This document shows, piece after piece, positions 14,989 to 64,000 of a stretch of 64,000 nt of DNA. The translations under genes and the position numbers were made by a program. Positions within the stretch are counted from its first letter, which is position 1. Each line of letters starts with the position of its first letter. The stretch is from Plasmodiophora brassicae. Its lineage: Eukaryota. The notes under the pieces were generated by a model that worked only from the letters and a program-made list of their open reading frames with translations, did no database searches and was not told the origin of the DNA. Where the stretch lies: positions 1,116,001 through 1,180,000 of the forward strand of contig CP145413.1 of NCBI GenBank assembly GCA_036867785.1, in the 5' to 3' direction.

Positions 14989-15616
14989 GCCCGAGCGCCG
15001 AGCGGTGTTGCCCGGGGTAATGTTGTGGGGTACCCTCGAATAAGTCCGCAACGCCGATGGCACACAACCGTGTTGACAGCACTGAGAAGAATATGCAAAT
15101 GGTGGATGCATAACAGAGACCCTCAGTAGTACAGTTCCGTACTGGATGAAACTTGTCGGATTCCTGGACGGGTTGCCGGCGGAACGATGAATGTGGCAGT
15201 CCGCAACGCAGTGTGCGTTCGGCCGACTAGATGGGAAATGGGTGAAGCCGGCTGTGATGTCGAGCTACGTGAGCACCGATACGTGTCACCACCGAATCAG
15301 CGGGTTGTAAACAAAGCAGACATCAACTTTCTGTTAAACGTAATTGAAAACAGGGGAGGCGAGATCATGCTGGAGCAGTATCGGGGAATGTTTGCTCAGA
15401 AACCCGATCTGATGGCACTATACAAGTGTGCAGATATAGAAGATCTGGGTATGTGTCTAACCGCATCAGATAATCCGTGAAATGTGCTGAATGACCTTTC
15501 AGTTAAGCATAAACATTGTGGGCTTCCAAGTATCTACACGCTCCTAAAAAGCGGAAGCGACATGCCAGAAAAGCTCAACCACAAAGTAATGGCTCTGGGG
15601 GCGATGCATGGCAGTG

Positions 15617-15813
15617 TGTTCATCCAGAGTACCAGTACTCAGATGATGCTGCTCAGATGCTGCTGCCACCCGGTCACATGATCATGACCGTACTCGACCC
15701 CGCAGCGGCCCTTGCTGTGACGATCCTGTCCAAATACATCAGTTCGTTATATCACCAGGCGCCGACTCTTGCGACCGACCGCCCCCGTAGTGGGCAGCGG
15801 CGGCGTTAGCACA
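15617..15813 (+). repeat. 5' LTR (197 bp)
   Basis: TGTTCATCCAGAG...GTTAGCACA; reads identical to 20756-20952. Confidence 0.96.
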
Positions 15814-20746: not shown

Positions 20747-20755
20747 CACGGGGAG

Positions 20756-20952
20756 TGTTCATCCAGAGTACCAGTACTCAGATGATGCTGCTCAGATGCT
20801 GCTGCCACCCGGTCACATGATCATGACCGTACTCGACCCCGCAGCGGCCCTTGCTGTGACGATCCTGTCCAAATACATCAGTTCGTTATATCACCAGGCG
20901 CCGACTCTTGCGACCGACCGCCCCCGTAGTGGGCAGCGGCGGCGTTAGCACA
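20756..20952 (+). repeat. 3' LTR (197 bp)
   Basis: Copy of the 5' LTR, followed by TSD CAGTG. Confidence 0.96.
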
Positions 20953-27615: not shown

Positions 27616-27660
27616 GGGCCCCATAGGCAGCCGCGACGGGGCGGACCAGGATATAACAGG
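27616..27660 (+). promoter_or_regulatory. Putative snRNA promoter: upstream element GGGCCC(C)ATA(G/A)G and TATA-like ATA(T)AACAGG
   Basis: Both motifs recur at nearly the same spacing upstream of the second U1 copy (29125-29169), while the flanking DNA differs. Confidence 0.55.
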
Positions 27661-27682
27661 GCGATCCGAGGTCGGAAAAAGC

Positions 27683-27877
27683 ATACTTACCTTGGTGGTC
27701 CTCCGTGGTTCAGCCACATTATGGACGATCAGTCAGGTCCTGGAGGCATCCTGGAGCGGCCCACCTGCACGCGTTGAGACATACGCAGGGCGTCATGTGA
27801 AGGGGTGTAGTCTCGGCTCTGCCGGGGCTGACACCATAATTTATGAGTCGAGGGGCTCAGAGTTCGCTCTACCCCTG
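27683..27877 (+). ncRNA. U1: U1 spliceosomal snRNA, copy 1 (~195 nt)
   Basis: 5' ATACTTACCT; U1-70K-type loop GGAC-GATCAGTCAG-GTCC; TGCAC loop; Sm site ATAATTTATG; terminal GAGGGG..AGAG-TTCG-CTCT..CCCCT hairpin. Confidence 0.92.
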
Positions 27878-27899
27878 CCCCCCAAACAATCAAATCGAA

Positions 27900-28540
27900 A
27901 CGCGATGGCAGGAGTGGTGCGGTGCCGCAAGTCCATCATGCACTCGTTTTCAACCGTCCCATGCTGGAGGTGGGTAAACTCGAGCAGCGTCTACGGGAGA
28001 CGCGTCTACACTCTACACGCAACAGCCGTGGGGACGGAGGTACACGCAGTTCCGTGGAGGAGCAGGAAGCGGCGACCTTGATGTGGATCGTCGAAAACGA
28101 TATACTGGAATTCGGTACTTCAACATTGTCAACCTCACCTTTATTCGGTAAAATAGCCATCGTTAATGGCCGGGTTAGGTAGAGAACCGTCCGCCGTGGT
28201 TGTAACAGCTACCGACACCCTCATGGTCGCCGACGATTGCTTTGCGTACGTCGATACGCCTTGCGCCAACTTGGTCAATCGTCCGATGGGGTTCCACTGA
28301 GACGAATAGCGCCGTCCGAAGAGTGCCGGGCGTGGCTGTTGGACTCTTGCTGCTGTCATCTGATCCTTGATGGCAGTGGATGTCAGGAACGATCAACCAG
28401 TTGGTTATGCATGTAAAGCATATACCTAGGAACTGCATATACCTGCTGAAGCCTGCCGATATCGGGATTAACAAGCCTCTAAGGACGCGCATTCACAGCC
28501 GCTGGGAGGCCTGGAATCCCTGGATGCTTGAGAGGCCTAT
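27900..28540. mobile_element. Degenerate pogo/Tc5-type (DDE_1) transposase remnant, apparently with an internal inversion
   Basis: Plus-strand IPRNCIYLLKPADIGINKPLR..SRWEAW (28380-28568); minus-strand RVSVAVTTTADGSLP (28141-28359); plus-strand HTH-like SSVEEQEAATLMWIVE. No TIRs recognised. Confidence 0.5.
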
Positions 28541-29190
28541 CGACGACGCCCTGGGTCCACCTAATTAATTCAAGGCCCCAACTGGCGAATTGGGTCATAG
28601 ACACTCTGCAGAATTGTCAACGGCGTGCGCATATACGGTAGTTCTTGGTCATATTTCGTGAAGAGAGTCTATGCCCCGCATGCAAGTCGTGGCGCTGCCA
28701 GGCTCACCGAATACACCAATTTGTTGAAGGTCAAAATGCGGCACGGCGGGCAGTCCCCCTCGCACATTCATGCGATGTGACCTCTGCGGTCGTACGCGTT
28801 GCATCATGATAAATGCCAGGACGCGCTGGCCGAATGCCCAGTATGCGGTCGGATCGGCACCATGGGTCCCAGCTGCGACGGGGCCTGAAACGAACATCCG
28901 ACTGGTGCTCAGTCAGTGCTCGCAAAATTTCGATGCGGTTCGTATTGCTCTGCACCTACTGTCGACCTGTCGTAAAACGCAGTCGCCTGGTTCCATCAAT
29001 GGATTGCAGAACGGCCACCTAGCATGTGGAGTCGGTGTCTGTTGACGAGCTTTCACTGCACAGCCATCGAGTTCCCGAACGTTGCTTTTGCAATTGCAAG
29101 TCCGTGCCGTCCTGCTGGATTGGGGGGGCCCATAAGTAACTGTCAAGCGGCGAATGGGTGATAAACAGGCAGTCGACCGAGTGAGAAAGC

Positions 29191-29385
29191 ATACTTACCT
29201 TGGTGGTCCTCCGTGACTCAGTCACCTCGTGGTCGATCAATCAGGACCGGGAGGCATCCTGGAGCGGCCCACCTGCACGCGTTGAGACATACGCAGGGCG
29301 TCATGTGAAGGGGTGTAGTCTCGGCTCTGCCGGGGCTGACATCATAATTTATGAGTCGAGGGGCTCAGAGTTCGCTCTACCCCTG
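29191..29385 (+). ncRNA. U1: U1 spliceosomal snRNA, copy 2 (~195 nt)
   Basis: Same architecture as copy 1, with differences concentrated in stem-loop I that are largely compensatory. Both copies share a downstream CAATCAAATCGAAAC box. Confidence 0.92.
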
Positions 29386-29605
29386 CCCTCAATTCAATCA
29401 AATCGAAACTACAATAACAACTTGTTCAATCATCTCCCTGTGCACCCGCGCGCTTTGGCCCTGCTGCCTTTCGCCAGAGAAATGATGAACCGGGCGTAAT
29501 ACCTAACCTATCCCAATTGACGAAAACGCGGTCGTCTCCAAGCTCCGAAGTTCTGGCGCGCGTACGGCACGGGATTTCGTGTGTCGGTGTGGCGCATGCA
29601 CCGCA

Positions 29606-44494: not shown

Positions 44495-45685
44495 CTAGGG
44501 GAAGCCCACATGTGCATTGCGCGCATCGATAAAGATGAACTGGGAGGGCTTCTCGGCGTGCATGGCCAGCGCCTCGTGCATGGCCCGCGAAATGACGCAG
44601 CCCTTCTCGATGCACCCGTCCATGCCGACGTCGGCGTACCGCCGGCGATCCGCCTCGCTGCAGCTGGCCGTCAGGCCGAAGATGACGGATCGAGGGCGCC
44701 CGCCTCGCTGCTCGCCCTCGCGAATCATCCTGGTGGCCTCGCACCCGTCCAGGATCGGCAGCTGGACGTCCATCAAGATGACCGCGTACTGGTAGTCGCT
44801 GGCCATCTTGACGGCCGTCTCCCCGTCGGACGCCATGTCGCAGGCGTACCCGGACCGCTTCAGCGCCGCCTCCGTGATCTTCTGTGTGATCTTCAGGTCG
44901 TCGACCAGCAGCGCCCGGTTCTGCGGCGACGGCGGCCTGTTCACGATGAACGGCGGCGCGTTCGTCTGGGACGGCGCCGTCGTCGTTGCCGACCCTGCTG
45001 CGTCCGACGGCGCCCTGCCGTGCGACAGGCGGTCCTCCTTGGCGTCGTCGGTGTCCATGGCGCCCATGAAGATGTCGGGCAGGCTGTCCGGGTCGATGTG
45101 ATGCCGCCGTTTGATGCTCTGCACGTTCCTGGCGTTGATGAACACGAAATCCTGCAGGTTCTCCTTCGTGACCGCCAGCGCCTCGTGCATGGCCCGGGAC
45201 ACGATGCACCCCTTCTCGATGCAGCCGTCCATGCCCGCCTCGTTGTACCGCTCCAGGTCGGCATCCCGGCAGCTGCCCGTTAGGCCGTATATGATGGTGT
45301 GCGGCCGACGCCGCTCCCGTTCGTTCCTGCGGATCAGGACGGTGGCGTCGACGCCGTTCAGAACGGGCAGCTGGACGTCCATCAGGATGACCTGGTAATC
45401 GGTCTGGTTGGCCATCTCGACGGCCTGCTGCCCGTTGCTGGCCAGGTCGCACTGGTACCCGGCGCGATGCAGCGCTGCGGACGTGATCCGCTGCGTGATG
45501 ACGACGTCGTCGACCAGCAACGCGAGGCGCCTGCCGGACGCCGGGCCGGCGTGCGCCCGCGGTTTATGGTACAGGTCGACCTGGTCCGGGTCGCCGCAGA
45601 ACGCCGGGTCGACGACCGGCGACGCCGCCCGGCCCAGTGCGGGCGAGTGCGATTTCGCCGCCACCGATCGCAGCAGCGATGACAT
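44495..45685 (-). CDS. Stand-alone response regulator with two tandem receiver (REC) domains, intronless
   Basis: The pattern ALLVDD..ITQ, NG/DG..AV.MA, ILMDVQLP..G, GLT(G/A) and GMDGCIEKG occurs twice. TATAAAA lies ~45 nt upstream on the minus strand. Confidence 0.9.
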   Translation of the reverse strand: MSSLLRSVAAKSHSPALGRAASPVVDPAFCGDPDQVDLYHKPRAHAGPASGRRLALLVDDVVITQRITSAALHRAGYQCDLASNGQQAVEMANQTDYQVILMDVQLPVLNGVDATVLIRRNERERRRPHTIIYGLTGSCRDADLERYNEAGMDGCIEKGCIVSRAMHEALAVTKENLQDFVFINARNVQSIKRRHHIDPDSLPDIFMGAMDTDDAKEDRLSHGRAPSDAAGSATTTAPSQTNAPPFIVNRPPSPQNRALLVDDLKITQKITEAALKRSGYACDMASDGETAVKMASDYQYAVILMDVQLPILDGCEATRMIREGEQRGGRPRSVIFGLTASCSEADRRRYADVGMDGCIEKGCVISRAMHEALAMHAEKPSQFIFIDARNAHVGFP

Positions 45686-57244: not shown

Positions 57245-57458
57245 CGCCCGTCGTGCCAGCCGACCGCATCGTCCCACACGCAACCGCCGCAAGAGCATCC
57301 CGGGCGACGACGCTGGCGGCGGTCACCCCGCAACGGGACGGGGACAGTCCGAATGCAGTTCGTGCGCAGTCATCTGCACCGCCACATCATGGACCATCGC
57401 AGAGCACAACGCGCACACAACGACACAGTGGGGGAGGGGTGAATTCACAATTTCCGGC

Positions 57459-60400
57459 CTACGGCGACGCCACCTGGAAGCAGGTGTCGCTGAACCAGGC
57501 GTGGTCATCGAGGAAGTGGCCGACCACACGGAGGCCCGCCTTGGCCGCGAACGCCTCGATCTGCGCCAGGTCGTACTTGTACGAATTCTGCCCCCCGGGC
57601 ACCGGTTAGCGTGTCGCACGGTGGTGCCCGCCACGCGCGCGGTTTACCTCGACGTGGATCGATTCGCGCGCCCGGAAGGGTATTTCCAGACGGCGCCCGT
57701 CGCCGTCGACCGTCACGACCAGGTCCTGCTTGGCGACCAGGTGGCTCTCCATGCGGCGACGGTCCGGATTGAACAGCGCCTCGTGCTCGAACTGTTCGCG
57801 CACGATATCCCCGCCCAGCTCGCGATTGATCCGATCCAGCAAGTTGTAGTTGAACTCGGCCGTCACCCCTGCGTCACGTCAGCAAACCGCTTGCCGTGTT
57901 TGAACAACACGAGGCGTTTCTGACCGGCGGCGTCGCTGTAGGCATCGACCATAATGGAATGGTTCTCCTTGACGAGGTCGAAACCAACGATCAACAGATC
58001 GCCAATGTTCAACGCTTCGCGGAGGTCGCGTAGAAGGGCCCCCGCTTTGTCACTGTCATAGTTGCCGATGGAACTGCCCAGGAACAGGACGACATTCGAC
58101 ATGCCCGGCCGGTCGACCTTCGTGGTCCAGCGCAGCGCTTCAACATTGTCACCGAGCAGCAACGTGGCATCGTCGACGTCGACCGCTGACGAGCGCAGGA
58201 CGCTGTGCAGCGCGTTCAGAGCGCCCTGGGAGATGTCGATCGCCGTGTACGACAGCTGGATGCCACGCGAGCGGAGCGCTCGCAGGAACGGGATCGTCTT
58301 CGTCCCATCACCTTCCGCAACGTCAGGCGCTTCCCGCGATGGATTCGCGAGTGGCCCCGACCTGCACCAATCTCGATCAGGTTCACCGAGGCCGGGTTCG
58401 CCAGCCTGGTCAGCAGGTCGGCGATCGCCGGTGCGTGCTTCTGCAGGATGTGGGCCTCCGTCCGCGTCAGATAGTACTCCTTCGTTTCCGTTATCTTCGT
58501 GTACCTGACGCGACGGTTAGCTTGCCAGCGGATCGAGCAATGCAGAACGAATCGCTTCCAGTTCCGATCCACGATCATCGTAGAAGTGCACGGAATCGAT
58601 ACGTTTCGGGTTAGAGCACAGCCCGACACGAACGTCGCCAGCGAACCGATCCGCCGCCGACGCGCTGCCCCAACCCGGGAGCGTCGCGAATCGCATGCGT
58701 TCGCGGCCAGCAACGACGTCACGACAGATGCGGAACTTGGCGAACGGGTAGATGTAATTCCTCTGGTACCTGTGCCACACAACCGCCCCGTTACGAAGAG
58801 AGGCCCAGCTGACGAGCTGGGGGCGAGCAGCAGACCAGTTCCGGAACGAGGGGCGCGTTAGGTTCTCGGTCGTCGCCCAGGATCCCCCTTTCATCACATA
58901 ATGCTTGCCTAGAGCGGGGGCATTCGTTCAACATTGGACCGTGGTACGTCTCTCGGCGGTTCACTGGTACCGTCGAAGAAATCGGCCGAGTAGCCGGGGT
59001 ACGACGCCACCGGTACGAAGTCTTTGGGATCGCCCAGAGGAGCGAACGGCGTTGACGTCCACTCCCATCCGTTGCCAACCAGGTCCCGCACGCCGAACGG
59101 GCTCGCTATTGACCAGCTGAGTTCGCAACGGTCGTCCGTCCAGCGACGACGCCCCGCACCTGAGTTCGACTCGTGCACAGGCTGCGTTCCCCAGTGCCGA
59201 AAGTTGATGTTGACGTCGGCACGCGCGGGGCCCTCGTCTCCCCATGGGAACCGGGCGCGAGCATCACCGTATGCAGCGCGATGATATTCTACACGCAGCA
59301 AACCGGTGTCGACACATCTGAACGGTGAGTCGTTCGGTGGGGACGTTACCGGGTTCGGTCATAAGGCGCCCGCCATGGGACCGGCAGTACGCCTCCGCTT
59401 CGGCGTTCGAGACGAACACGGGATGGTCGGCCACCTCTGACAGCGGCACGTACTCGAACAGCGTTCGCACCAGCCTGCGAGCGGTGCGTCATCAGAGCAA
59501 GATCGGGCGCACGGACGCGTGACCTTGACCATTGCCCCGAGGCATCGTCGCGCTTCCACAGCGCCGGGTGTCGAACCTGGTCCCGGACGATCCACTGCCA
59601 GATGTCTGGTGCCCAGCTGGATTCCTCGCTGTAGGCGCCTTGTCCGACCCATTCCAGGTACTCTGCGTTCGTGACCGGAAGCGATTGCACGTGGAAGGCG
59701 CCCACCTCAACCGACACCTGCGGGAACTCATTGTCCCATCCGACTACGAGCAGCGTTACGAGGTCATCGACGGCAGCGGTTCGGCAATGGGCGTACAGGA
59801 TGTGTCAGAGCGCGCCATGCCCAGGACGGCCGTTCCATCTGGGACGGTGCACTGAACACGGTCCCACGTCGTCGTGCCCGCTGCTCCTGGACGGCGCTCG
59901 GGCACCGATTCGGGACGCGACACGTGCATGGGATCGCATTGCATCATCATGTACAGCAGCGCTGGCAGGGGCGGTCAGCAACGCGGGCACATCCTGAGGC
60001 GGTCGCCGTACGTACTCTCTTGGTGCATCTGCTCGTGCTCGACGATGATATCGACGACGCCGCCGAGGCGCATCTCGTGCAGTGTACCGATGCACCCGAC
60101 GACACGACGGCGGACGTCGTTGACGTAGTGGACGACCGCATCCATGGCCGGCCAAATGTCTTTGTTCGCATCAGCACTGTGCGCATGGCACTCGCCTGTG
60201 GTCACGTCCGGGTCCATGCCACGCTCGCTACGTTCGTTCCAGCACGATCAGCGCCCCGGGGGGACGTATCGCACAAAGTACATACAAGAGAGCGTCGAAG
60301 TCGACGTTGCCCCGGCGTGGAGCGCGTTTGCCCAAGGCGGCGACAACCTGGTTCATGGCGAACGCCGGCAGGTGGCCGACGTAGAACAGGAACGGGTGCC

Positions 60401-60542
60401 GCAACGCGATGGGTCGCAGCAGGAACCCGTCACCGTTCAGGCAGGAGAAGATCTGGTCCGTCCTTGCCCATGTTTCGCGCAACTCCAACGCTTTCGTCAG
60501 CGTCTTCGAATCCGGGCTGCCTTCCACAACGAACGACGCCAT
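57459..60542 (-). CDS. Ergothioneine-type bifunctional enzyme, copy B: N-terminal EgtB/Egt1-like sulfoxide synthase fused to C-terminal EgtD-like histidine methyltransferase (12 exons; one intron has a GG donor)
   Basis: RHPFLFYVGHLPAF, FERGMDPDV, EHEQMHQETLLYM, FGWDNE, GNGWEWT, YPGYSADFFDG and KGGSWAT..FRNWYQ. Then PKRIDS..FYDDRGSEL, EYYLTRTE, IEIGAG, FLGSSIGN, GFDLVK, AYSDAAGVTAEFNYNLL and IHVENSYKY. Confidence 0.88.
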
Positions 60543-60923
60543 GCACTGTGGCGTTCGTTAAACAGAATGCGGGTCGACCGTATGACTGGCCCGAAGGTGG
60601 GCGACCGACGTTCTCGATAACGCGGCAGAGACCCGATGGTGCCCCGTTCCAGAAGACCGCCCGCCGACGTGAAGTCGCACGTGGGGGATGCTGGATGATT
60701 TCTAGCCCAGACGACGAGTGGGAGCGCGACCCCCGTATAACGGCCTGCATTTACCCAGAGAAGCGTCGCTCTGTGACTGTGTAGGGCCAGGCCGCCTAGC
60801 CCTTCGATTGAGTGACCCACGCGAACGAATCTACGATGCGTTTTCGGTTGCTGATCGAAGATTCAGCGTCGACATCTTGCCAGGTCACATGTGCCAGGCC
60901 CATCGGCAACGGAGGACGCTGGT

Positions 60924-63900
60924 CTATTTGGAGACAACTTGGAAACACGTATCGGTGAACCAGGACTTGTCGTCGAGGAAGTGGTGGACCACGTGCAACC
61001 CGACCTTTCCTGCGAACGTCTCGATCTGCCCCAGCTCGTACTTGTACGAATTCTGTGAGCGACGCTGTCGTTTAGGGCATGATCGCTGTGCGGTTAGTGT
61101 GCCGCGATACCTCAATGTGAATGGTTTCACGTGCCCGGAACGGGACCGCCAGACGCTGCCCGTCTTCATCGCCGTCGATGGAGACGACCAGGTCCTGGCT
61201 GGCGACCAGGTGGCTCTCCATCCGGTTGTGCACCGGGTTGAACAACGCCTGGTGCTCAAAGCGAATGCGATCGAAATCGCCGCCCAGTTCGCGATTGACA
61301 CGATCCAGCAAGTTGTAGTTGAATTCGGCGGTCACGCCTGCAGGCAGAAACCTTCAGCAAACCGCTCGACATGCAGGTAGCAACCGCCCCTGACCAGCTG
61401 CGTCGCTGTAGGCATCAATCATAATGGAGTGGTTCTCCTTGACGAGGTCGAAACCAACGATCAACAGATCGCCAACGTTCAACGCATCGCGAAGGTCGTG
61501 TAGAAGGGCCTCCGCTTTGTCATTGTCGTAGTTGCCGATGGAGCTGCCCAGGAACAGGACGACATTCGACATGCCCGGCCGGTCGACCTGCGTGGTCCAC
61601 CGCAGGGCCTCAACGTTATCCCCGAGCAAGAACGTCGCATCGGTGACGTCGACCGCCGACGAGCGCAGGGCGCCTTGCAACGCGTCCAGCGCGCCCTGGG
61701 AAATATCGATCGCAGTGTACGACAGCTGGATGCCACGAGACCGAAGCGCTTGCAGCAATGGGATCGTCTTCTTCCCGTCACCTGCCACAGCCATGGGTTG
61801 GGAACGCGTCGTGCGATCAGCGAACATTCATGGCTAACCCGACCTGCACCGATTTCGATCAGGTTGATGGACGACGGGTTCGGCAGCAGCGTCAGGACGG
61901 CAGCGATCGTTGGCGCATGGTCCTGCAGGATCCGCGTCTCCGTCCGCGTCAGGTAGTACTCCTCCGTTTCCGTGATCATCGCGAACCTATTCGGATTAGG
62001 GGGACCATGCCAGGAAGCACATCTGGCAACCGCTCACAGTTCCGATCCGCGGTCATCATAGAAGTGCATGGAGTCGATGCGCTTCGGGTTCGAGGACAGC
62101 CCAGCACGAACGTCGCGTGCGAACCGACCCTCCAACGACTGCTTGTTCCACCCCGGCAGCGTCACGAACCGGTACGACGTACCGACACTGGCGTCGCGCT
62201 CGTCCGCCTCAATGTCGCGACAGATTCGGAACTTGGCGAACGGGTAGACGTAATTCTTCTGGTACCTGTGCCAGTGTGGGTTCAGACGTCGACGCGCACG
62301 TTTACAGATGACAGGGGCGCAGCGAACCAGTTCCGGAACGACGGGCGCGTCATGTTCGTCGCTGTTGCCCACGATCCCCCCTTCATCACGTAATGCTTCC
62401 CTATCGTGACAGTATCAGGTACCCGCGTCCAGGTTCGATGGCCATTGTCGGTACCGTCGAAGAAGTCGGCCGAGTACCCGGGGTACGATGGCATCGGTGT
62501 GAATTGCAGAGGGTCGCCCAGCGGCATGAACTGGGAAGACGTCCACTCCCACCCGTTGCCAATCAGGTCGCGCACCCCAAACGGGCTCGCTGCGAACCGT
62601 TAAGCGCCAGGCGAAGGGAGCGTCGGCCACAACGCACCTGAATTCGACTGCCACACAGGTTGGGTACCCCAATGCCGAAAGTCAACGTTAACGCCGGCCT
62701 GCTCAGGAGCATCATTGCCCCATGGAAACGGATGACATGTGTCACCGTATGCAGCGCGATGATACTCTACGTCAAACGCATTTTGACATCGTGTACGGAA
62801 GCGAGCGTCGGCTTCAGCGTACCGGGTTCGGTCATGAGTCGACCGCCATGGGACCGGCAGTACGCATCTGCTTCGGCGTTCGAGACGAACACCGGATGGT
62901 CGGCGACTTCCGACAGGGGTACGTACTCGAAAAGCGTACGCACCATCCTGTGGCAGTAAACGTGGGCACACAACCATCCGCTTCAGCGCAGTACTGACCA
63001 CTGCTTTGAGACATCGTCGTACCTCCACAGCGCCGGGTGTCGAATCTGGTCCCGCACGATCCACCGCCAGACGTCTGGTGGCCAGTTGGACTCGACCGTG
63101 TACGCCCCTCCGTCGACCCACTCCAGGTACTCTGCGTTCGTGACAGGAAGCCGTTGCACACGAAAGGCGCCAACGTCAACGGACACCTGCGGAAACTCGT
63201 TGTCCCATCCGACTATCAACAGCATTAGAAAATCACCGACAAGCGGTTCGGCAATGGCATACAGGTCGTGGCACAGCGCGACATGCCCAGCACAGCCTTT
63301 CCCCCAGGGATGGTGCACTGCACCGGTTCGCATGACGCCTTATGCATTGGAGTCAGCGGGCGCTCCCGAAGCGATTCGGGCCGCGACAGGTGCACGGGAT
63401 CGCATTGCATCATCATGTACAACAGTGCTGCAAGGAGACAGCCATCAGAAGCACAGCTCACGCATGGCAAGGCCGCATTACTCTCTTGGTGCATCTGCTC
63501 GTGCTCGATGATGATGTCGACGACATATCCGAGGCGCATCTCAAGCAGGACCTCGACGCACCCCAGGATTCGCTGTCGAGTATCACAAGCATACTTGACG
63601 ACGTCATCAATCGCCGGCCAGACGTCGTTGTTCGCATCGGCGCTGTGCGCGTGACATTCCCCTGTTAGCACGTCCGGGTCCATGCCACGCTCACTACACA
63701 CAGTAAGGGCAGTGTCCAGTTGGAACCGTTGCATGGTGCACGTACAACAGAGCATCGAAGCTGGCGTTGGCGCGAACTGGAGCGAGCTTCCCCAGGGCGA
63801 GGGCGACCTGGTTCATGGCGAACGCGGGTAGGTGGCCGACGTAGAACAGGAACGGGTGCCGCAACGTGATGGGGCGCAGCAGGAACCCGTCGGCAGACAG

Positions 63901-64000
63901 AAAGGAGAAGACCTGGTCCGACCTCGCCCATGCTTTCTGCAGCGCCGCTTCCGTCTTTGTTGACATTGCTCGCGGGTACTGCTCCTTCACGAACGATGCC
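60924..64000 (-). CDS. Ergothioneine-type bifunctional enzyme, copy A (same EgtB-EgtD fusion; the ATG is cut by the window edge)
   Basis: Same motifs and intron positions as copy B. The window ends in (AT)G GCA TCG TTC GTG, giving MASFV as in copy B. All donors checked are GT. Confidence 0.9.

What the first reader, a model, noticed from the sequence alone, without database searches (positions are those of the whole stretch)
58505..58559. GG splice donor just inside the methyltransferase domain of copy B only
Seen: the intron after GGA TCG GAA CT begins GTGAGC in copy A but GGAAGC in copy B. Its CTAAC branch point and CAG acceptor are intact, as are all other introns and the downstream methyltransferase exons. 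Retaining the 55-nt intron reads SELEAIRSALLDPLAS* (stop 58517-58519), giving a complete sulfoxide synthase without a functional methyltransferase. Inference: this is a rare GG-AG intron, a switch between a synthase-only and a bifunctional protein, or a very recent lesion.
Basis: partly seen in the sequence, partly recalled or inferred. Interest (0 to 1): 0.7.

Follow-up and report, generated by a model that had tools for sequence, protein, structure and literature searches.

The report
Working GG-AG intron in clubroot gene
One intron of a duplicated antioxidant-pathway gene of the clubroot parasite starts with GG instead of the near-universal GT, yet assembled RNA shows it cut out exactly in some samples and left in, which truncates the protein, in another.

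Summary
On the minus strand lie two tandem paralogues (75.6% identical, 12 introns each at matching positions) that encode an EgtB/OvoA-like sulfoxide synthase fused to an EgtD-like methyltransferase. A database name gives the organism as Plasmodiophora brassicae. Of the 24 introns, 23 begin with GT. Intron 9 of copy B (58559..58505, 55 nt) begins with GG.

The GG is not an assembly error. A DNA contig from a separate run and an RNA contig both carry it, and all three public protein models of this gene avoid the site.

In 2 of the 3 RNA runs laid, exactly these 55 nt are missing. This restores the conserved motif FYDDRGSEL-YTKIT. In the third run the same transcript has its neighbouring introns removed but keeps this one, which gives a 520-aa synthase-only reading frame.

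The cryptic canonical GT..AG intron used by the public models (58572..58521) does not fit the RNA contigs.

The methyltransferase exons show no decay (dN/dS about 0.2; copy-specific changes 6 against 7).

Verdict: a real, incompletely spliced GG-AG intron, which is a rare but known class. Whether retention is regulated is open. The genotype of the two runs that show splicing could not be read directly.

The parts
58505..58559 (-). Intron 9 of copy B: 55 nt, GG..AG (GGAAGC...CTAAC...CAG), phase 2, between the codon bases CT and G of a Leu
   Evidence: Sequence. Homologous to the GT..AG intron 62037..61987 of copy A. Missing exactly from the RNA contigs of X16 and X19 and retained in that of X15 (arithmetic).
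58558..58559 (-). GG donor dinucleotide; 58558 is the base that is T in copy A and in the 23 other introns
   Evidence: No other letter was reported at this place in the runs that cover it: the X11 DNA contig and the X15 RNA contig.
58516..58520 (-). CTAAC branch-point-like motif; its branch A lies 12 nt from the intron's last base
   Evidence: Sequence motif only; use as a branch point was not tested.
58517..58519 (-). TAA, in frame when the intron is retained; ends a 520-aa synthase-only product
58521..58572 (-). Cryptic canonical GT..AG intron (52 nt) used by the three public protein models. It replaces RGSEL with PNRRVR.
   Evidence: reproduces P0001, P0132 and P0133 exactly with this intron. 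The RNA pieces of X16 and X19 end at 58503, not at 58520.
57459..60542 (-). Copy B gene: ATG at 60542, stop ending at 57459, 13 exons, 799 aa when all 12 introns are removed. Domains (P0001 numbering): DinB_2 20-157, FGE-sulfatase 195-454, Methyltransf_33 482-798.
   Evidence: Six joints are listed; the rest are inferred from record arithmetic and from homology with copy A.
57459..58504 (-). Exons 10-13 of copy B: the methyltransferase domain downstream of the GG intron
   Evidence: Pfam PF10017 matches exon by exon. dN/dS against copy A is 0.23 (NG86) and 0.17 (YN00) over 292 codons.
60924..64000 (-). Copy A, C-terminal 806 codons, 12 GT..AG introns. The gene continues upstream of the window into a PLP-dependent aminotransferase-fold domain (P0002, 1173 aa).
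61987..62037 (-). Intron 9 of copy A: 51 nt, GTGAGC...CTAAT...TAG, the canonical counterpart of the GG intron
   Evidence: Joint 61984/62036 in all 3 RNA runs.

Best explanation
Intron 9 of copy B is a genuine spliceosomal (U2-type) intron whose donor has changed from GT to GG. The spliceosome can still remove it at exactly the ancestral borders, which yields the full 799-aa sulfoxide synthase plus EgtD-like methyltransferase. Removal is not always complete: an mRNA that keeps only this intron also accumulates, and it would end translation after 520 residues, before the methyltransferase domain. Shown here: the GG in DNA and RNA, exact loss of the 55 nt in the transcript contigs of two runs, retention in a third, and intact, constrained downstream exons. 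Inferred: the rest of the intron makes up for the bad +2 base. It has A, A, G at +3 to +5 (A at +3 and G at +5 are the majority letters among the 23 GT introns; A at +4 is the second commonest), a perfect CTAAC 12 nt from a CAG acceptor, and the typical 55-nt length. Recognition then works much as it does for GC-AG introns. The retained form is most simply a by-product of a weakened donor.
For: (1): X15 record 10 covers 58360-58767 without a break (408 nt of record for 408 nt of genome, 0 other letters), while the same record is spliced at 58309/58360 and 58767/58834. Only this intron is retained. (2): in X16 record 15 and X19 record 19 the piece 58360-58503 stops at the acceptor. In X16, record positions 707-1378 (672 nt) must hold everything between 58504 and 59528; that span is 1025 nt, which is 672 nt after removing six introns including the 55-nt one, and 727 nt if it were kept. 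Exons 5-9 sum to 125+129+135+73+210 = 672. (3) X19 record 19 is 1742 nt. Taking 58090..60399 (2310 nt) and removing the ten introns (568 nt) gives 1742. X15 record 10 is 1797 = 1742 + 55 (my arithmetic; it assumes the records start at 60399, as the X11 DNA contig does). (4), table 2, bin 58420-58643: X16 reads 126 = 167 x 169/224, X19 reads 28.1 = 37.2 x 169/224, and X15 reads 100.8, which is full cover. (5) GG in DNA: X11 record 2, 58090-60399, 0 differences. (6) The spliced junction restores FYDDRGSEL-YTKITETKEYY. This matches copy A (FYDDRGSELFAMIT), P0004 (FYDDVGSDIFSAIT) and solved EgtD (FYDAVGSDLFDQIT). (7) 12 of 12 intron positions are shared with copy A. (8) No decay: for the methyltransferase domain dN/dS is 0.22 (NG86) and 0.16 (YN00), against 0.26 and 0.19 for the synthase. 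Changes unique to B against unique to A, with P0004 as outgroup, are 6 against 7 (methyltransferase) and 11 against 13 (synthase). (9) Local donor consensus over the 23 GT introns: +3 is A in 12, +4 is C in 9 and A in 8, +5 is G in 16.
Against: The joint row itself is not printed (10 joints were not shown), so the excision rests on record coordinates and depth arithmetic, although several independent figures agree exactly. The two runs that show splicing carry another organism code (B) than the run that shows retention (A). Because the intron is absent from their contigs, their base at 58558 was not seen. Contigs drop rare variants, so neither the absence of the spliced form in X15 nor the absence of the retained form in X16 and X19 is shown, and no ratio can be given. 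The cut could equally be written GA..GG one base further on; the RNA cannot tell the two apart. The compensation idea is inference from 24 introns. No branch point or snRNA was examined.
Confidence: 0.78

Rival explanations
1. Regulated switch. Retention of the GG intron is controlled by life stage or condition, so copy B makes either a bifunctional synthase-methyltransferase or a functional 520-aa synthase-only protein.
For: Only one form was assembled in each run: retained in X15 (organism code A), spliced in X16 and X19 (organism code B, two studies). The truncated frame keeps the whole DinB_2 and FGE-sulfatase part (residues 20-454). Stand-alone sulfoxide synthases of this fold are solved structures (EgtB-IV 8vih).
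Against: There are three runs of assembled contigs, with no replicates, no known conditions and no quantification. A weak donor alone predicts a mixture. The retained mRNA carries a premature stop upstream of three more introns and may simply be degraded or untranslated. No protein evidence exists.
Confidence: 0.12
2. Strain polymorphism. The strains behind X16 and X19 have GT and splice normally, and the GG allele (window, X11, X15) is a splicing-dead lesion that always retains the intron.
For: The split follows the organism code: A retains, B splices. The donor base cannot be seen in spliced contigs.
Against: X16 and X19 show no difference from the window over all they cover in 57300-64000. 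X15, which does carry GG, differs at 62913, so GG occurs in at least two distinguishable genotypes. Three public protein models from three assemblies (contigs of 1,544,657, 1,483,127 and 411,197 nt) all use the cryptic 58572..58521 intron. A predictor would not need it if GT were present (indirect). The methyltransferase exons show no relaxation.
Confidence: 0.08
3. Artefact or mis-drawn intron. Either the GG is an assembly error, or the real intron is the canonical cryptic one of the public annotation (58572..58521).
For: All three public models use the cryptic GT..AG and stay in frame.
Against: GG is present in an independent DNA contig and in an RNA contig. The RNA pieces end at 58503, not 58520, and the 672-nt and 1742-nt figures fit only a 55-nt removal. 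The cryptic intron destroys the conserved GS.L motif.
Confidence: 0.02

Closest known systems
GG-AG non-canonical U2-like introns, e.g. human CPSF3 (passages of PMC4176328) and 20 GG-AG among about 92,000 introns (0.0217%) in the Ganoderma lingzhi annotation (table passage of PMC11590231)
   Same: The same terminal dinucleotides, otherwise U2-like signals, and RNA-supported removal. In CPSF3 use is condition-specific (testis only).
   Different: This one is in a rhizarian parasite. It is the constitutive position of a conserved intron rather than an alternative site, has a canonical paralogous counterpart 3.5 kb away, and its retention removes a whole enzyme domain. Drosophila release 6.04 lists 0 GG-AG introns (passage of PMC4528330).
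GA-AG introns of FGFR genes and ITPR1 (passages of PMC4176328)
   Same: A +2 purine donor that is nevertheless spliced. Like ITPR1, it has been mis-annotated by snapping to a nearby false GT..AG.
   Different: According to that paper, the FGFR-type GA site depends on a canonical GT 6 nt upstream. Here the nearest upstream GT (58572) is 13 nt away, and no dependence was tested.
GC-AG introns (the commonest exception, about 0.9% in human; PMC4176328 introduction)
   Same: A single change at +2 is tolerated when the rest of the donor is close to consensus (the tolerance rule is recalled, not tested here).
   Different: +2 is G, not C, which is a far rarer class.
Ergothioneine-type enzymes: EgtD (PDB 4uy6/4pim), EgtB-IV (8vih), OvoA (8khq), and fungal Egt1
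   Same: Domain families DinB_2 + FGE-sulfatase + Methyltransf_33. Best solved relatives are EgtB-IV at 1.5e-51 and EgtD at 1.1e-40.
   Different: The order is synthase first, methyltransferase last. The opposite order in fungal Egt1 is recalled, not tested. Copy A adds an N-terminal PLP-enzyme domain. No NCBIfam equivalog cut-off is reached.

Membership tests
Spliceosomal U2-type intron with non-canonical GG-AG ends | Removed precisely from mature RNA | tested here: met
   X16 and X19 contigs lack exactly 55 nt between 58503/58504 and 58559/58560 (record coordinates; 672-nt check). That is 2 of the 3 RNA runs laid; the third retains it.
Spliceosomal U2-type intron with non-canonical GG-AG ends | The pre-mRNA that is spliced carries GG rather than a GT allele | tested here: inconclusive
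   GG is seen in the X11 DNA contig and the X15 RNA contig and implied by 3 of 3 public models. The base is not visible in the spliced contigs of X16 and X19.
Spliceosomal U2-type intron with non-canonical GG-AG ends | 3' AG and a branch-point-like motif close to it; length typical of the genome's introns | tested here: met
   CAG acceptor, with CTAAC 12 nt from the 3' end. Length is 55 nt, equal to the median of the 24 introns (range 48-66).
Spliceosomal U2-type intron with non-canonical GG-AG ends | Homologous in position and phase to a canonical intron | tested here: met
   Copy A intron 62037..61987 has the same exon end GGATCGGAACT and the same phase 2.
Spliceosomal U2-type intron with non-canonical GG-AG ends | Lariat formation at the predicted branch A; U1/U6 recognition | not testable with these tools
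   No raw reads, no lariat data and no snRNA genes were available (no genome held).
U12-type (minor spliceosome) intron | Donor of the RTATCCTT type and a TCCTTAAC-like branch site (motifs recalled) | tested here: not met
   The donor reads GGAAGCGA and the branch region reads GCAAGCTAACC.
EgtD-type histidine N-alpha-methyltransferase (PF10017 / TIGR03438) | Full-length match to the family profile | tested here: met
   PF10017 scores 271.6 bits (cut-off 23), residues 482-798 of P0001 on profile positions 2-303 of 304. Exons 9-13 match successive parts of the profile.
EgtD-type histidine N-alpha-methyltransferase (PF10017 / TIGR03438) | Reaches the NCBIfam equivalog cut-off | tested here: not met
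   TIGR03438 scores 257.2 bits for P0001 and 279.1 for P0002, against a cut-off of 290.9. P0001 carries the mis-annotated junction, which may lower its score.
EgtB / OvoA sulfoxide synthase | DinB_2 plus FGE-sulfatase domains | tested here: met
   PF12867 at 20-157 and PF03781 at 195-454. EgtB-IV 8vih scores 1.5e-51.
EgtB / OvoA sulfoxide synthase | Assignment to one equivalog (OvoA, EgtB or SenA) | tested here: not met
   TIGR04344 scores 237.9 (cut-off 400), TIGR03440 scores 201.1 (cut-off 360), NF041186 scores 201.1 (cut-off 420). Substrate and regiochemistry remain open.

The most novel reading that the evidence does not exclude
The single T-to-G change has turned a constitutive intron into a conditional one. 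Depending on life stage or host context, copy B would deliver either a synthase-methyltransferase or a free 520-aa sulfoxide synthase that works beside the three-domain copy A. That would be a one-base domain switch in thiohistidine (ergothioneine-like) synthesis of an obligate plant parasite.
Probability: 0.12. Interest if true: 0.65.

Novelty: new member of a known kind. Interest (0 to 1): 0.42.

Why it matters
This is a clean natural example of a GG donor being used. The paralogue 3.5 kb away keeps GT at the same position, so the two genes form a built-in control for asking what lets a spliceosome tolerate a +2 purine.

It also corrects three public gene models of this Plasmodiophora brassicae gene. 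All three replace the conserved EgtD motif RGSEL with PNRRVR, because gene predictors accept only canonical ends.

The intron-retaining mRNA would remove the methyltransferase domain. Expression studies of this pathway in clubroot should therefore count the two forms separately.

In the searches made here, no paper on nuclear non-canonical splicing in this organism turned up. That covers only the open-access library searched.

Tried and rejected

A scan of metagenome contigs for the 37-nt donor region with either base at the critical place found 0 loci, so no further isolates were obtained that way.

The look-up of sequencing runs lists no holder on record as RNA. The runs marked as guessed RNA proved to be spliced when laid.

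Parts without cover and forms not assembled are not evidence of absence, because contigs drop rare variants. This applies to the lack of a retained contig in X16 and X19 and the lack of a spliced contig in X15.

The difference in word share between X15 (0.66) and X17 (0.63, same study) is about what 55 retained nt would add.

Assembly error: rejected.

Cryptic canonical intron 58572..58521: rejected as the form seen in RNA. One search lists six other in-frame GT/GC..AG combinations near the site. None fits the piece ends and lengths.

U12-type intron: rejected from the donor sequence.

Literature: three searches on P. brassicae with 'splice site', 'intron retention' and 'GT-AG' gave nothing on nuclear non-canonical introns. 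PMC6823432 (passages read) discusses only odd mitochondrial splice pairs. PBRA_006259 appears in 0 papers. Supplements were not consulted.

The domain question was answered from single-exon references and stored database proteins instead.

The ancestral state of the donor could not be fixed with an outgroup gene, because no DNA of a relative was obtained. GT as the ancestral state rests on copy A and on the 23 of 24 introns that have GT.

Full report
**What is in the sequence.** The finding lies on the minus strand. reads ...TACGATGATCGTGGATCGGAACT|GGAAGCGATTCG...GGCAAGCTAACCGTCGCGTCAG|GTACACGAAGATAACG. The 55 nt from 58559 down to 58505 start GG (the odd base is 58558) and end CAG, with CTAAC at 58520..58516. 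The exon end GGATCGGAACT occurs twice in the window. It is followed by GGAAGC at 58554-58570 and by GTGAGC at 62032-62048. Read through, the frame gives RGSELEAIRSALLDPLAS and stops at 58519..58517.

**The two genes.** A self-comparison shows one tandem duplication, 57472-60476 against 60937-63937, 75.6% identical over about 3.1 kb. I built both gene models from the spliced RNA contigs, the A/B alignment and the reading frame.
- Each copy has 13 exons and 12 introns at matching positions and phases.
- The introns are 48-66 nt long, median 55.
- Copy B runs from the ATG at 60542 to a stop ending at 57459 and encodes 799 aa.
- Copy A's last 806 codons lie in the window and equal the C-terminal 806 residues of database protein P0002 without a single difference.
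- 23 of the 24 introns begin GT and all 24 end AG. The exception is the intron of the finding.

**What they encode.** Exon by exon, copy B matches DinB_2 (exons 1-2), FGE-sulfatase (exons 4, 5, 7) and Methyltransf_33 (exons 9-13, successive parts of the profile).
- On the stored proteins the domains are DinB_2 20-157, FGE-sulfatase 195-454 and Methyltransf_33 482-798 (P0001).
- NCBIfam's best models are EgtD (257.2 bits, cut-off 290.9), OvoA N-terminal (237.9, cut-off 400) and EgtB (201.1, cut-off 360). None reaches its cut-off.
- The nearest solved structures are EgtB-IV (8vih, 1.5e-51), EgtD (4uy6, 1.1e-40) and OvoA (8khq).
- The NCBI name attached to P0001 gives the organism as Plasmodiophora brassicae.

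**Is the GG real?** Run X11 is listed as not being a possible source of the window. Its DNA contig covers 58090-60399 with 0 other letters and 0 gaps. The RNA contig of X15 that keeps the intron also shows no difference there. X15 differs from the window at 62913, so GG is present in at least two distinguishable genotypes. The public protein models give indirect support. P0001 (802 aa), P0132 (800 aa) and P0133 (824 aa) come from contigs of three different lengths, and each is reproduced exactly from the window only if a cryptic GT..AG intron, 58572..58521, is used in place of the homologous one. A predictor would have had no reason to use it if GT stood at 58559/58558. An assembly error is excluded.

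**Is it spliced?** The three runs guessed to be RNA (X15, X16, X19; three studies) are indeed spliced. All 15 joints listed have CT..AC on the plus strand, which is GT..AG on the minus strand. The joint of interest is among the 10 joints not shown, so I read it from the record coordinates.
- In X15, record 10 holds 58360-58767 as one piece (record 1170-1577, 408 nt for 408 nt). The same record is spliced on both sides (58309/58360 and 58767/58834). So only the GG intron is retained.
- In X16 (record 15) and X19 (record 19) the piece 58360-58503 ends at the acceptor. The G at 58504 fits either side of the joint.
- In X16, record positions 707-1378 (672 nt) lie between that piece and the piece 59529-59743. 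The genome between them is 1025 nt. Removing six introns including the 55-nt one leaves exactly 672 nt; keeping it would leave 727. Exons 5 to 9 sum to 672.
- X19's record is 1742 nt, which is 2310 nt (58090-60399) less the 568 nt of introns 1-10. X15's is 1797 = 1742 + 55. This is my arithmetic, assuming the records begin where the DNA contig does.
- The depth bin 58420-58643 agrees: 126 = 167 x 169/224 in X16, 28.1 = 37.2 x 169/224 in X19, and full cover (100.8) in X15.

So 2 of 3 RNA runs hold an mRNA from which exactly these 55 nt are gone, and 1 of 3 holds an mRNA that keeps them. RNA cannot tell GG..AG from the same cut written one base further on (GA..GG). The version with the AG acceptor is the one homologous to copy A.

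**The public models are wrong here.** The cryptic intron would leave 58504-58520 in the mRNA, but the RNA pieces stop at 58503. It also turns FYDDRGSEL-YTKIT into FYDDPNRRVRYTKIT. That breaks a motif kept in copy A (FYDDRGSELFAMIT), in the 39%-identical protein P0004 (FYDDVGSDIFSAIT) and in solved EgtD (FYDAVGSDLFDQIT). Two of the three models also add SR at intron 4 by using a donor at 59523, whereas the RNA piece ends at 59529. One model keeps intron 8 in frame.

**Is the methyltransferase part decaying?** No sign of it.
- Pairwise dN/dS between A and B is 0.22 (NG86) and 0.16 (YN00) for the methyltransferase domain (321 codons).
- It is 0.23 and 0.17 for the part downstream of the GG intron (292 codons), and 0.26 and 0.19 for the synthase (437 codons).
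- dS is about 0.5-0.9.
- With P0004 as outgroup, residues changed in B alone against A alone are 6 against 7 in the methyltransferase part and 11 against 13 in the synthase part.

A pairwise ratio cannot see a very recent relaxation, so this bounds the lesion reading rather than excluding it.

**How it most likely works.** Over the 23 GT introns the donor is weakly conserved beyond GT: +3 is A in 12, +4 is C in 9 and A in 8, +5 is G in 16. The GG intron has A, A, G there. It has a perfect CTAAC 12 nt from a CAG acceptor, where copy A has CTAAT, and it is of median length.

My reading is that short-intron recognition in this organism relies on the sum of these signals. One bad base at +2 lowers the efficiency of splicing without abolishing it, as is accepted for GC-AG introns (recalled knowledge). 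The result is a mixture of full-length mRNA and an intron-retaining mRNA with a premature stop. The mixture is shown across runs, not within one run. The compensation is inferred.

**What remains open.** The run that retains the intron carries organism code A, and the two runs that splice it carry code B. This could reflect life stage or context (the switch reading). It could be chance in what an assembler keeps. Least likely, given the evidence on genotype above, it could be a GT allele in those samples. With one read-laying run on contigs I could not see the donor base in X16 or X19, nor any ratio of the two forms.

**Comparison with what is known.** GG-AG is a documented but very rare class.
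- A testis-specific GG-AG site exists in human CPSF3 (passage of PMC4176328).
- The Ganoderma lingzhi annotation has 20 GG-AG introns, 0.0217% of its introns (table passage of PMC11590231).
- Drosophila release 6.04 has none (table passage of PMC4528330).
- PMC4176328 also describes mis-annotation of a GA-AG junction by snapping to a nearby GT-AG, as happened here.

I found no paper on nuclear non-canonical introns in P. brassicae. PMC6823432 (passages read) deals with mitochondrial splice pairs only. This is therefore a new member of a known kind. It is of moderate interest, with practical value for annotation and for studies of this pathway.

Noticed in passing
window 60924-64000 (-) and beyond the window end: Copy A is longer than copy B. 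Database protein P0002 (1173 aa) carries an N-terminal PLP-dependent aminotransferase-fold domain (PF00155, residues 19-366; weak PatB C-S lyase match) ahead of the synthase and methyltransferase, so it looks like a three-step thiohistidine pathway in one chain. The same collinear architecture appears in P0004, P0015, P0017 and P0021 (35-40% identity, 96-99% coverage). P0020 also lists all the domains but covers 76% of the query. Copy B starts with its own ATG exactly at the domain border.
   Followed up: partly
window 58770-58835, 59475-59529: The public models of copy B have further errors. P0133 keeps intron 8 in frame (22 extra residues). P0001 and P0133 use a donor at 59523 that adds SR, whereas the RNA contig piece ends at 59529.
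   Followed up: yes
window 60377-61052: The RNA contigs of X16 and X19 run unbroken through the 381-nt spacer between the stop of copy A (60924) and the ATG of copy B (60542). The cause could be overlapping UTRs or read-through. A contig across two genes does not show a single transcript.
   Followed up: no
window 58571-58573 vs 62049-62051: The cryptic GT used by the annotations exists only in copy B. The Arg codon is CGT in B and CGC in A, a synonymous difference 13 nt upstream of the GG donor. Whether this GT helps recruit the spliceosome, as reported for FGFR GA-AG sites, was not tested.
   Followed up: no
window 62913: The X15 RNA contig reads G where the window has A (plus strand), in exon 5 of copy A. 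The other three runs agree with the window. It could be a strain difference or an RNA-level change; this was not resolved.
   Followed up: no
window 15616-15813 / 20755-20952; 27650-27901 / 29160-29409; 44565-44914 / 45174-45523: Other repeats within the window: an exact 198-nt direct repeat 5.1 kb apart, a 90.6% repeat of about 250 nt, and a 75% repeat of about 350 nt.
   Followed up: no
literature (abstract of PMC10094275, search listing): Exogenous ergothioneine is reported to inhibit germination of P. brassicae resting spores. The parasite itself carries two genes of an ergothioneine-type pathway, which that listing does not mention.
   Followed up: no
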